A stretch of DNA of 8,050 nucleotides from IMG/VR virus record IMGVR_UViG_2695420855_000011, positions 1-8,050 of that record. One strand, 5' to 3'. A program made the position numbers and the translations under genes. Shown in pieces: positions 6,152 through 6,887 of this stretch (the first letter of the stretch is position 1; every line of letters begins with the position of its first letter). The DNA comes from a virus. Lineage: Duplodnaviria > Heunggongvirae > Uroviricota > Caudoviricetes. The notes beneath the pieces were generated by a model. That model saw only the letters and a program-made list of their open reading frames with translations. It was not told where the DNA came from and did not search any database.

Positions 6152-6313
6152 TCATTGCTCACCGAGTAACGAGATCAGGCCTTCAACTTCATCACTCAGC
6201 TTGTTTATTCGTGTCTCAAGCTCTGCGATCTTTTCCATCAATGGCGCTATGGTGTCTCTTGTTTCCTCGCCAATGGCTTTAATGATGCTTGCCTCGCGTT
6301 CTGTGATAGCCAT
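6152..6313 (-). CDS. Small coiled-coil-like protein, 53 aa
   Basis: Own translation: MAITEREASIIKAIGEETRDTIAPLMEKIAELETRINKLSDEVEGLISLLGEQ. GAGG lies 8 nt upstream of the ATG at 6313; tightly packed after the upstream ORF. Below the ORF-track cutoff. Confidence 0.4.
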   Translation of the reverse strand: MAITEREASIIKAIGEETRDTIAPLMEKIAELETRINKLSDEVEGLISLLGEQ

Positions 6314-6316
6314 TGT

Positions 6317-6511
6317 TTACGCCTCACTTGTTGCAATGCCCAGGCGTTCGCGTAACAGTACGCGCGCAAGATGCCCTATTGTTGGTGTTGCCGCCCTGCC
6401 GTAGATACCTGATTCATTCATCCGGCGCACAATATCGAACTGCAACTTTTTAAGCTCGTTAAGGATTTCATGATCAATCATCACGGTAGCGCTTTGCTTT
6501 ATCTCTTCCAC
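6317..6511 (-). CDS. Small putative DNA-binding protein, 64 aa, GTG start
   Basis: GTG at 6511 with an excellent SD (AGGAG, 8-nt spacer). Sequence ...ATVMIDHEILNELKKLQFDIVRRMNESGIYGRAATPTIGHLARVLLRERLG... suggests a strand-helix-helix arrangement, a weak guess. Confidence 0.45.
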   Translation of the reverse strand: MEEIKQSATVMIDHEILNELKKLQFDIVRRMNESGIYGRAATPTIGHLARVLLRERLGIATSEA

Positions 6512-6598
6512 TTTGTTTTCTCCTGATACTTATCATTGCATAACCAGTATTTTCGATAGATTATCATTAATTAACCATCTTTGAAGATATATGAGATC

Positions 6599-6624
6599 GA
6601 AAAAAAGCCGGATTGCTCCGGCTA
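6599..6624 (-). terminator. Canonical rho-independent terminator
   Basis: Perfect 7-bp stem AGCCGGA / TCCGGCT with a 4-nt loop at 6607-6624, adjacent to AAAAAAA at 6600-6606 (a U7 tract on the minus strand). It lies 18 bp past the stop of the ORF at 6642..6887. Confidence 0.65.
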
Positions 6625-6641
6625 TGTGCTCACTTCTTCGG

Positions 6642-6887
6642 TTATTCTCCAGCGCTTTTAACGTTGATGGTTGTTACCTGTTCCGCTTCGGCAATCTCCC
6701 GTTCTGTCAGCGTGGCAAAGTTTGCCGCCGCTGTGGTCATGAATGCGCTTATCAGTTCGGGATGCTCCTTCGCGTATCCTTCCCCCGCGTGGCGGTCTAT
6801 CGTTCTGATTGCCACCTTTAAGGAAAGCTCTGTCATGTCTAACGCTTTATATTTTGGCGCTGTCTTATCTCTGGTTTTTCTGTTCAT
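6642..6887 (-). CDS. Hypothetical 81-aa protein immediately downstream of the putative origin
   Basis: ATG at 6887 with GGGGAG about 9 nt upstream (within the iterons). No family recognised; an alternative internal start at 6836 is possible. Confidence 0.4.
   Translation of the reverse strand: MNRKTRDKTAPKYKALDMTELSLKVAIRTIDRHAGEGYAKEHPELISAFMTTAAANFATLTEREIAEAEQVTTINVKSAGE

What the first reader, a model, noticed from the sequence alone, without database searches (positions are those of the whole stretch)
6152..6887. Three unrecognised small genes between the origin and terS
An 81-aa, a 64-aa (GTG start, excellent SD) and a 53-aa coiled-coil ORF lie in series, with a canonical terminator (6599-6624) after the first. 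In PICI-type islands this position holds regulators and helper-interference factors, so these are candidates for packaging redirection or anti-helper functions.
Basis: inference. Interest (0 to 1): 0.4.

Follow-up and report, generated by a model that had tools for sequence, protein, structure and literature searches.

The report
Three small genes in a phage satellite
The three small reading frames are real, conserved genes of an E. coli phage satellite island, but one belongs to its DNA-replication module and the other two head its capsid/packaging operon, and nothing yet shows that any of them attacks the helper phage.

Summary
Observation confirmed. RefSeq already calls the three ORFs hypothetical proteins.

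They fall into two units:
- ORF81 (6642-6887) abuts the last iteron and is followed by a strong terminator. Its family occurs in 1613 of 5426 complete E. coli genomes. In 11 of 12 islands inspected it is the first gene after rep and ori, and in 8 an SSB gene overlaps its stop by 4 bases. I read it as a replication-zone gene.
- The 64-aa and 53-aa ORFs are 3 nt apart. This pair occurs in 220 of 5426 genomes.

The 64-aa protein shows dN/dS of 0.08-0.12. Distant relatives open the capsid-homologue operon in four other satellites. It is a remote homologue of the EcCICFT073 gene just upstream of capsid c1499 (hhalign 93%).

It models as extended segment-helix-helix, but RHH membership is unproven. 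The 53-aa protein is an acidic leucine zipper, mislabelled "NusG" in public databases.

My best guess is a regulator pair for the late operon. Anti-helper and scaffold roles are not excluded. This is ordinary PICI biology with uncharacterised families, of modest interest.

The parts
7089..7628 (-). C-terminal 179 aa of a RepA-type replicative helicase (pri-rep). It is truncated at an artificial or illegitimate junction with an int fragment at 7626/7627.
   Evidence: Pfam AAA_25 and phrog_2850 (E 1.4e-97). Aligns to the full 'helicase RepA family protein' of L001.
6888..7085 (.). Replication origin: two sets of TCCCCAC (GTGGGGA) iterons flanking an AT-rich centre.
   Evidence: 7 exact copies against 0.77 expected; 0 of 200 shuffles reach 7. 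Repeat families D4 and D5. Same layout as published PICI origins (PMC6092414).
6642..6887 (-). ORF81: last gene of the replication-zone transcription unit; function unknown.
   Evidence: phrog_1231, E 5.8e-48. 171 homologues found. Present in 1613 of 5426 complete E. coli genomes. 77% identical to the first post-ori gene of EcCICFT073. Overlapped by ssb in 8 of 12 islands inspected. Conserved core GEGYAKxHPxLIxAFMxTAAANFATL retained through synonymous changes.
6597..6623 (-). Intrinsic terminator that closes the replication-zone unit.
   Evidence: 7-bp stem with 5 G-C pairs, 4-nt loop and a T7 tail. The same hairpin is present in L008 and L009, and after perC in EcCICFT073.
6512..6596 (-). AT-rich leader region, presumed late-operon promoter. 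It has a -10-like GATAAT at 6565-6560 (TATAAT in L008 and L009), an 8-mer AATGATAA present twice, and SD AGGAG at 6524-6520.
   Evidence: Read from the sequence. The consensus promoter scan found nothing at its threshold, and the repeat finder reported no direct repeat here. The promoter is therefore inferred, not shown.
6317..6511 (-). 64-aa late-operon leader protein (called RHH64 in this report); extended segment-helix-helix model.
   Evidence: dN/dS 0.08-0.12. AF2 pLDDT 84, with helices at 14-33 and 45-57. Distant relatives are the first gene after rep and ori in L004, L006, L007 and L023. hhalign 93% to the EcCICFT073 68-aa leader.
6152..6313 (-). 53-aa acidic coiled-coil protein (called CC53 in this report), closely coupled to the 64-aa gene.
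   Evidence: Heptad register and pI 4.4. Homologues directly follow the leader gene in L004, L007 and L023, with an invariant or near-invariant C-terminus EVEGLISLLGE.
6100..6149 (-). GC-rich hairpin just after the CC53 stop; no U-tract; role unknown.
   Evidence: RNA fold. The z-score of the 146-nt stretch is only -1.5.
5536..6024 (-). Island-encoded small terminase (162 aa), with AAAGTTAC repeats in its 5' leader and in its coding sequence.
   Evidence: Terminase_2 and phrog_641. RefSeq 'terminase small subunit'. Repeats counted.
5363..5524 (-). Second 53-aa ORF ('53b'), which overlaps the start of the capsid-homologue gene.
   Evidence: Hits positions 89-126 of TerS family phrog_641 (E 1.3e-6). 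dN/dS 0.06-0.29. Conserved in the same position in L006 and L023.
4450..5376 (-). HK97-type major capsid protein homologue; last gene of the late operon.
   Evidence: Pfam Phage_capsid and TIGR01554. 37-45% identical homologues end the same operon in L004, L006, L007 and L023.

Best explanation
The three ORFs are genuine protein-coding genes of a Gram-negative phage-inducible chromosomal island (PICI). They belong to two different transcription units.

(1) ORF81. It is read through the iteron origin together with the rep gene, and a strong intrinsic terminator ends that unit. It belongs to the replication module. In most related islands it is translationally coupled to an island-encoded SSB. 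I infer a replication-accessory role.

(2) The 64-aa and 53-aa genes. They are closely coupled and are the first two genes of the late operon (64 aa, 53 aa, terS, 53b, capsid homologue). The 64-aa protein belongs to a leader family that opens the capsid-homologue operon in several otherwise different enterobacterial satellites. I propose that it is a small dimeric, ribbon-helix-helix-like DNA-binding protein that sets expression of that operon from the AT-rich region just downstream of the terminator. I propose that the acidic 53-aa leucine zipper is its protein partner or modulator.

Shown: gene reality, conservation, operon partition, synteny and remote homology.
Inferred: co-transcription of ORF81 with rep, DNA binding and regulation by the 64-aa protein, partnership between the 64-aa and 53-aa proteins, and the replication role of ORF81.
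For: Gene reality.

Partition into two units:
- The terminator lies directly after ORF81.
- The identical hairpin ends the rep-ori-ORF85-ssb-perC unit of EcCICFT073.
- No minus-strand terminator was found between rep and ORF81.

ORF81 in the replication zone:
- In 11 of 12 islands inspected it is the first gene after rep and ori, whether rep is a RepA helicase or a primase.
- In 8 of those an ssb gene overlaps its stop by 4 bases.
- A published four-zone PICI scheme places Primase, SSB and ori in one Replication zone (PMC10111431).

The 64-aa protein as late-operon leader:
- Exhaustive HMMER found only three distant small relatives. A search with the capsid homologue turned up a Serratia island carrying a fourth.
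- All four are the first gene after rep and ori, and each operon ends in a homologous capsid-like gene.
- hhalign gives 93% probability (E 3e-7, 60 columns) to the 68-aa gene that abuts capsid c1499 in EcCICFT073. That gene is present in 610 of 5426 genomes, and in all 8 rows listed it abuts a capsid gene.
- In the related islands the leader gene follows a terminator plus a shared TTTCAT-N4-TGCAAC-N13-GTTGCA element.

Fold and partner:
- The AF2 model (pLDDT 84) is an extended N-terminal segment followed by two helices.
- The N-terminal pattern K-x-S-V-M-L-D-x-E-I aligns in register with the strand and first helix of Arc, Mnt and CopG.
- CC53 follows within 3-10 nt, or overlaps the leader gene's stop, in 4 of 5 islands. 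It is acidic and heptad-regular.
Against: - No Pfam, NCBIfam or PDB profile hit links the 64-aa family to RHH proteins.
- hhalign to a hand-made RHH set gives only 7-10% probability.
- Foldseek gives no significant match. Named RHH and CopG entries appear only at E 4-7.
- The residues that would face DNA in an RHH ribbon (S/T, M, D) are atypical, and the protein is not basic (pI 6.7).
- The conserved dyad of the related islands is absent upstream of the window's gene.
- The window's own 8-mer repeat is short and was not reported by the repeat finder.
- No sigma-70-like promoter passes the scan.
- One related island (L010) has a capsid gene with no leader ORF.
- The ORF81 model is only moderate (pLDDT 70) and has no structural neighbour, so its role rests on synteny alone.
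- No expression data were available.
Confidence: 0.45

Rival explanations
1. Helper-interference or packaging-redirection factors. One or more of the small proteins, most plausibly the acidic coiled-coil CC53, binds a helper phage protein such as TerS, TerL, portal or a late activator. This would block helper packaging or divert it to the island, as Rpp does in EcCICFT073 and Ppi or PtiA/B do in SaPIs.
For: - The position in the operon just upstream of terS matches where SaPIs keep ppi, pti and cpm genes (general knowledge; PMC6739421).
- None of the three has a homologue in 50,697 phage records, so they are satellite-specific.
- CC53 has a strongly conserved C-terminal motif on a variable body, as expected for a binding interface.
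Against: - No similarity to Rpp or to any solved interference protein.
- No PADLOC hit.
- The 64-aa leader family is conserved across islands whose late operons differ (with or without terS, with portal, with a 798-aa protein). That fits a housekeeping role in the island better than a helper-specific weapon.
- ORF81 sits upstream of the terminator with rep and ssb.
- The published EcCICFT073 plaque screen lists clones from c1499 onward, so by gene order the homologues of ORF81 and of the leader were apparently not tested. There is therefore no direct evidence either way.
Confidence: 0.2
2. Capsid-assembly accessories. The leader protein and/or CC53 act with the island's capsid homologue as a small scaffold, chaperone or size-determination factor (functionally like SaPI CpmB or phage scaffolding proteins), so that small capsids fit the roughly 9-kb island.
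For: - Every island carrying the 64-aa family, and the listed islands carrying the related 68-aa gene, also carry a capsid homologue.
- In EcCICFT073 the 68-aa gene shares its last base with the first base of the capsid gene.
- In L007 CC53 lies immediately upstream of the capsid homologue.
- CC53 is a short acidic coiled coil with a conserved C-terminus, an architecture typical of scaffolding proteins (general knowledge).
Against: - In the window, L004 and L023 other genes separate CC53 from the capsid gene.
- L006 has the capsid homologue but no CC53.
- EcCICFT073 is packaged in full-sized capsids, and deleting its capsid gene has no phenotype (PMC6092414).
- No sequence or fold similarity to any scaffold was found.
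Confidence: 0.2
3. The ORFs, or some of them, are not functional genes. They would be chance reading frames or decaying remnants in a defective island.
For: - The window itself is a rearranged, partly deleted copy of the island.
- CC53 shows too few differences among close relatives for a meaningful dN/dS.
Against: - Strong purifying selection on the 64-aa gene.
- Amino-acid conservation through synonymous change in ORF81.
- Homologues of CC53 and of the 64-aa protein at 24-55% identity, in conserved synteny, in other genera.
- Good Shine-Dalgarno sequences and close coupling.
- Hundreds to thousands of genomes carry intact copies.
Confidence: 0.03

Closest known systems
EcCICFT073 85-aa gene directly after the ori (WP_001260558.1; L003 10285-10542)
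   Same: Homologue of ORF81, 77% identical over the conserved core. Same position as the first gene after rep and the iterons, and the same unit-ending terminator hairpin further downstream.
   Different: In EcCICFT073 it is followed by ssb and perC before the terminator, and the rep type and iterons differ. It is itself uncharacterised. By gene order it would be about c1495, which is not in the published pBAD18 clone list that starts at c1499. That numbering is my inference.
EcCICFT073 68-aa gene abutting the capsid gene c1499 (WP_000796960.1; L003 11463-11669)
   Same: Remote homologue of the 64-aa protein (hhalign 93%, E 3e-7). First gene of the late operon, preceded by terminator(s) and a promoter-like region.
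   Different: BLAST sees no similarity. It is followed directly by a lambda-E-type capsid and decoration genes, with no CC53 and no terS. It is uncharacterised.
Ribbon-helix-helix regulators (Arc, Mnt, CopG, ParD antitoxin type)
   Same: Similar size. An N-terminal K-x-[ST]-[VI]-x-[LI]-D-x-E-[IL] strand-like segment followed by two helices. Position as the first gene of an operon, where RHH autoregulators typically sit.
   Different: No significant profile or fold match. The loop between the helices is longer, the putative DNA-facing residues are unusual, and the protein is not basic.
Rpp (redirecting phage packaging) of EcCICFT073-type PICIs
   Same: Satellite-encoded small protein in the late region that controls packaging specificity (PMC6739421).
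   Different: Rpp is 144-153 aa and binds helper TerS of cos phages. None of the three ORFs, nor the island's terS, matches solved Rpp chains. This island has its own TerS and no lambda cosN.
SaPI operon-1 small proteins (CpmB, PtiM/PtiA, Ppi)
   Same: Short, mostly helical proteins encoded just upstream of a satellite terS, acting through protein-protein contacts. This is a resemblance by position, from general knowledge.
   Different: No detectable homology, a different host phylum, and no function tested here.

Membership tests
Gram-negative PICI (phage-inducible chromosomal island) | Tyrosine integrase at one end, with an AlpA-type regulator/excisionase downstream | tested here: met
   Integrase domains at E 5e-29. 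The AlpA-like 68-aa ORF at 1801-2007 hits excisionase PHROGs at E 2.5e-6, but its Pfam AlpA score is below the cut-off. Same order in L001.
Gram-negative PICI (phage-inducible chromosomal island) | pri-rep gene followed by an origin made of two iteron sets around an AT-rich region | tested here: met
   RepA helicase fragment at 7089-7628, then 7 TCCCCAC iterons at 6888-7085. Intact in L001.
Gram-negative PICI (phage-inducible chromosomal island) | Small size, site-specific insertion, and only a few phage late genes (terS and/or a capsid homologue) | tested here: met
   About 9 kb between the att sites at tRNA-Pro in L001, with only terS and one capsid homologue.
Gram-negative PICI (phage-inducible chromosomal island) | Induction, packaging and high-frequency transfer by a helper phage | not testable with these tools
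   The reconstituted attP-like junction in the window suggests an excised or concatemeric form. Mobilisation itself cannot be shown.
Ribbon-helix-helix (Arc/MetJ/CopG) superfamily: 64-aa protein | Significant sequence-profile match to an RHH family | tested here: not met
   No Pfam or NCBIfam hit for any of 6 family members even at E 10. No PDB profile hit. hhalign to an 8-member RHH set gives 7-10% probability.
Ribbon-helix-helix (Arc/MetJ/CopG) superfamily: 64-aa protein | Strand-helix-helix topology of the monomer | tested here: inconclusive
   The AF2 monomer shows extended residues 8-13, then helices at 14-33 and 45-57. Foldseek gives no significant match.
Ribbon-helix-helix (Arc/MetJ/CopG) superfamily: 64-aa protein | Homodimer with a two-stranded antiparallel ribbon that binds operator DNA | not testable with these tools
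   No multimer prediction or binding assay was available.
NusG antitermination factor (public label on the 53-aa protein) | NGN domain plus KOW domain, about 180 aa | tested here: not met
   The protein is 53 aa. The Pfam scan at E up to 1 gives only weak coiled-coil-type hits and neither NusG domain. The label is propagated in NCBI and UniRef.
Rpp packaging-redirection proteins | Sequence similarity to RppA/B/C (RppC structure solved, so its chains should be in the PDB set searched) | tested here: not met
   No PDB sequence hit to any Rpp chain for the three ORFs or for terS.
Known anti-phage defence or toxin-antitoxin systems | Match to a PADLOC model | tested here: not met
   No hit for ORF81 or the 64-aa protein. 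The 53-aa protein has only a coiled-coil-type hit to LmuB (E 0.021).
phrog_1231 (ORF81) | Full-length profile match | tested here: met
   E 5.8e-48, residues 1-78 against profile positions 1-78 of 83. The family has no known function.

The most novel reading that the evidence does not exclude
The 64-aa protein and the EcCICFT073 68-aa protein represent one widespread leader family that acts as the dedicated switch of the late (capsid/packaging) operon of Gram-negative PICIs, binding the promoter-operator just downstream of the replication-zone terminator. The 53-aa zipper would be its antagonist or co-factor, coupling late expression to the helper. ORF81 would be a satellite-specific partner of the island SSB or replisome. 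Together this would give the first account of how these satellites time their late genes.
Probability: 0.2. Interest if true: 0.5.

Novelty: new member of a known kind. Interest (0 to 1): 0.3.

Why it matters
PICIs of E. coli and its relatives move virulence and defence genes. Their integration, AlpA induction, replication and Rpp-type packaging redirection have been worked out, but the small genes around the origin are still blanks.

This analysis does three things:
- It assigns the three ORFs to two functional zones.
- It shows that the ORF81 family is one of the commonest satellite genes in E. coli (about 30% of complete genomes) and is tied to ssb.
- It links the 64-aa protein to a leader family that opens capsid-homologue operons in several satellite subtypes, including the model island EcCICFT073.

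This gives clear, cheap experiments: three deletions, one EMSA and a two-hybrid assay. It also corrects a propagated misannotation (the 'NusG' label). It does not reveal a new kind of system.

Tried and rejected
- Pfam, NCBIfam and PADLOC scans of all three ORFs gave no informative hit. PHROGs gave only phrog_1231, of unknown function, for ORF81.
- PDB sequence searches, both single-sequence and profile, gave nothing for ORF81 or the 64-aa protein, and only generic coiled coils for the 53-aa protein.
- Foldseek of the 64-aa model against PDB and BFVD, and of the ORF81 model against PDB, gave no significant match.
- tblastn of each ORF against 50,697 phage genomes gave no match.
- Genome-contig scan with the CC53 alignment found no confirmed relative.
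- RgdR, which is reported in all analysed E. coli PICIs, was considered as the identity of ORF81 and rejected. RgdR (ECs1581/C1493) is a 99-aa protein (PMC3378721). By size and gene order it matches the 99-aa DUF4222 gene upstream of rep.
- A lambda-type cos site inside ORF81, which might explain its near-identical 3' half among islands, was rejected. There is no cosN-like sequence, and divergent copies show synonymous variation.
- A transmembrane segment in ORF81 was rejected (maximum 19-residue hydropathy 0.86).
- Rfam found no RNA family in 6100-6900.
- No CTG-N10-CAG (LexA box core) is seen when reading 6511-6600.
- A literature search for the five WP accessions found no paper.
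Full report
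WHAT IS THERE

All genes in the right half of the window lie on the minus strand. Reading that strand, the order is:
- The C-terminal 179 codons of a RepA-type helicase (7628-7089).
- An origin with seven TCCCCAC/GTGGGGA iterons in two sets around an AT-rich centre (7085-6888). 0 of 200 shuffles reach seven copies.
- An 81-codon ORF whose ATG (6887) abuts the last iteron.
- A textbook intrinsic terminator, AGCCGGAGCAATCCGGCT followed by T7 (6623-6597).
- An 85-nt AT-rich spacer.
- A 64-codon ORF starting at GTG 6511, with AGGAG 8 nt upstream.
- Three bases after its stop, a 53-codon ORF (6313-6152).
- A GC-rich hairpin (6149-6100).
- A small terminase gene (6024-5536; Pfam Terminase_2 and phrog_641).
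- A second 53-codon ORF (5524-5363).
- An HK97-type capsid homologue (5376-4450).

THE ELEMENT

Window 5300-7300 is 98.7% identical to a roughly 9-kb island at tRNA-Pro (yejM side) in E. coli ZH48. Its gene order there is int, an AlpA-like HTH, an Icd-like gene, DUF4222, RepA helicase, three 'hypothetical proteins' of 81, 64 and 53 aa, terS, a hypothetical gene, and a capsid protein. This matches the published Gram-negative PICI organisation (PMC6092414). It also fits the four zones (Integration, Bro, Replication, Late) of PMC10111431. No phage genome in the INPHARED set matches the region.

The window itself is a rearranged copy. It contains a reconstituted attP-like joint near 3965-3978, two deletion joints (239/240 and 7626/7627), and duplicated stretches. 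The block studied here is collinear with intact islands.

ARE THE ORFS GENES?

Yes.
- RefSeq calls all three as CDS, and each exact protein is on record from about 1000 or more contigs.
- Against two islands with a different rep gene and a different insertion site (L008, L009), the 64-aa gene has 16-18 synonymous but only 6-8 non-synonymous differences. That gives dN/dS 0.08-0.12 at dS about 0.5.
- ORF81 has a variable N-terminus. Its core, GEGYAKxHPxLIxAFMxTAAANFATL, is invariant or nearly so and is kept through many synonymous changes in divergent copies.
- The 53-aa gene is too similar among close relatives for dN/dS to mean anything. It does have homologues of 32-55% identity in other satellites.

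ORF81 BELONGS TO THE REPLICATION ZONE

Its family (phrog_1231; 171 homologues) is found in 1613 of 5426 complete E. coli genomes. It has no match in the phage collection.

I inspected twelve islands (the window/ZH48 island, L008, L009, CFT073, L010-L013 and L024-L027):
- In eleven it is the first gene after rep and a 200-290-bp origin gap, whether rep is a RepA helicase or a primase.
- In eight an ssb gene overlaps its stop codon by 4 bases.
- In L011 it sits in a different context.

In EcCICFT073 the unit is rep, ori, the ORF81 homologue (77% identical), ssb, perC. It ends with the same terminator hairpin that follows ORF81 in the window. In the window-type islands, ssb and perC are simply absent.

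I conclude that ORF81 is the last gene of the replication-zone unit, and I infer a replication-accessory role. Its AF2 model is three helices at modest confidence (pLDDT 70), with no structural neighbour and no membrane segment.

It is not RgdR. RgdR is a 99-aa protein (C1493 in CFT073; PMC3378721). By size and gene order that matches the 99-aa DUF4222 gene upstream of rep.

The published lambda-interference screen of EcCICFT073 lists clones from c1499 onward. By gene order this family was apparently not tested.

THE 64-AA AND 53-AA GENES HEAD THE LATE OPERON

The pair occurs in 220 of 5426 genomes. An exhaustive HMMER search of 1.84 billion representative proteins with the 64-aa sequence found only three small distant relatives, at 37-45% identity. 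A scan with the capsid homologue turned up a Serratia aquatilis island with a fourth.

In all four, the relative is the first gene after rep and ori, and the operon ends in a homologous capsid-like gene:
- L004: RepA | 71 aa | 53 aa | 798 aa | capsid homologue.
- L007: RepA | 80 aa | 53 aa | capsid homologue.
- L006: primase | 70 aa | portal | TerS | 53b | capsid homologue.
- L023: primase | leader | 55 aa | 77 aa | TerS | 53b | capsid homologue.

The 53-aa coiled coil follows the leader gene within 3-10 nt, or overlaps it, in four of the five island types. It keeps an invariant C-terminus, EVEGLISLLGE (DIEGLLEMTE in Serratia), on a variable body.

A profile of the 64-aa family matches the 68-aa gene that abuts capsid gene c1499 of EcCICFT073, with 93% hhalign probability (E 3e-7, 60 columns). 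That gene is in 610 of 5426 genomes, and in all eight rows listed it lies next to a capsid gene.

The related islands share a terminator followed by TTTCAT-N4-TGCAAC-N13-GTTGCA upstream of the leader gene. The window-type islands have a different AT-rich region there. It contains a -10-like GATAAT (TATAAT in L008 and L009) and a short repeated AATGATAA. The promoter scan and the repeat finder report neither.

WHAT THE TWO PROTEINS LOOK LIKE

The 64-aa protein models with good confidence (pLDDT 84) as an extended N-terminal segment followed by helices at 14-33 and 45-57. Its N-terminal pattern, K-x-S-V-M-L-D-x-E-I, aligns in register with the strand and first helix of Arc, Mnt and CopG. That alignment reaches only 7-10% hhalign probability. 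Pfam, NCBIfam, PDB profile searches and Foldseek give nothing significant. Ribbon-helix-helix is therefore a reasonable structural reading, not a demonstrated membership.

The 53-aa protein is acidic (pI 4.4), has a clean heptad register, and matches only generic leucine zippers. The label 'antitermination protein NusG' that it carries in NCBI and UniRef has no domain support.

MECHANISM

My best-supported reading (confidence about 0.45) has three parts:
- ORF81 finishes the replication unit.
- The terminator insulates the late operon.
- The closely coupled 64-aa and 53-aa pair is the operon's own control module: a small dimeric DNA-binding leader protein plus an acidic zipper partner.

The arguments are positional. 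The leader is always first in the operon. It is conserved across late operons of different content. It follows a conserved terminator-promoter element in relatives.

Two rivals remain open at about 0.2 each. The second is a scaffold-like or chaperone role with the capsid homologue, which always co-occurs. A non-functional reading is very unlikely.

COMPARISON AND NOVELTY

The element is a known kind: a PICI of the subtype with its own terS and a capsid homologue. The three genes belong to families with no described function, and I found no paper that mentions them.

The new points are:
- The assignment to two units.
- The ORF81-ssb linkage.
- The leader family that links this island to EcCICFT073.
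- The misannotation of the 53-aa protein.

This is useful housekeeping for satellite biology rather than a surprise, so interest is 0.3.

Noticed in passing
window 1-239 = 4450-4688; 3322-3745 = 7627-8050; joints at 239/240, about 3965-3978 and 7626/7627: The window is not a simple chromosomal island. It holds a reconstituted attP-like joint whose core, GGTCGGCACGAGAG, is the 3' end of tRNA-Pro, with the int side fused to the far-end side. It also holds two deletion joints: the capsid 3' end fused to the Icd-like region, and RepA fused to the int N-terminus through an ACGGGAAT microhomology. The two duplicated stretches have different offsets (4449 and 4305), so one circle cannot explain them. 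It looks like a concatemer of deleted copies, or an assembly chimera of excised island DNA.
   Followed up: partly
window 803-890 (-) and 912-988 (-): Rfam matches above gathering score to C4 antisense RNA (77.6 bits) and isrK (66 bits), the P4-type immunity RNA pair. They lie in the zone between alpA and rep, and inside a 409-codon ORF (557-1786) that is therefore probably spurious.
   Followed up: no
window 5795-5853 and 6049-6068: AAAGTTAC occurs six times (0.28 expected; 0 of 200 shuffles reach 6). Three copies sit at 12-nt spacing inside terS, where they encode KKVTKKVTEKVT, with one inverted copy nearby. Two more sit at 12-nt spacing in the terS 5' leader. This is a candidate pac or TerS-binding array.
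   Followed up: partly
window 5363-5524 (-): A second 53-aa ORF overlaps the capsid-homologue start. It is very acidic (pI 4.05). It matches positions 89-126 of TerS family phrog_641 (E 1.3e-6), although BLAST finds no similarity to the island's own TerS. It is under purifying selection and keeps the same position (after terS, overlapping the capsid gene) in L006 and in Serratia L023. It may be a TerS-derived partner or decoy, and is arguably a better packaging-redirection candidate than the three ORFs of the finding.
   Followed up: partly
window 6152-6313 (-), and public records: The 53-aa coiled-coil protein carries the name 'antitermination protein NusG' in many NCBI and UniRef records, and in RefSeq for strain UCPROB-001, without any NGN or KOW domain. 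This is a propagated misannotation.
   Followed up: yes
L004 5925-5990, L007 2430-2495, L023 4690-4745, L003 11350-11425: Related satellites share a terminator followed by TTTCAT-N4-TGCAAC-N13-GTTGCA upstream of the late-operon leader gene. EcCICFT073 additionally has a perfect palindrome, AACTGGATGAACATCCAGTT (CTG-N10-CAG, LexA-box-like), between this element and the 68-aa gene. The window-type islands lack both.
   Followed up: partly
window 6100-6149 (-): A GC-rich hairpin (GGGGGG..GTGTTCC / GGACAC..CCCCCC) lies directly after the 53-aa stop codon and has no U-tract. The z-score of the surrounding 146 nt is only -1.5, so its significance is unclear.
   Followed up: partly
window 6152-6511 compared with L008 and L009: Adjacent genes differ sharply in divergence between the same pairs of islands. 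The 64-aa gene has dS about 0.5, and the 53-aa gene next to it has dS 0.03-0.06. This points to a recombination boundary at the 3-nt junction between the two genes.
   Followed up: no
L004 6407-8803: In one related satellite a 798-aa protein with no Pfam hit on record takes the place of terS and 53b, between the 53-aa coiled coil and the capsid homologue. From reading its sequence only, it is alanine-rich and looks like a tape-measure protein.
   Followed up: no
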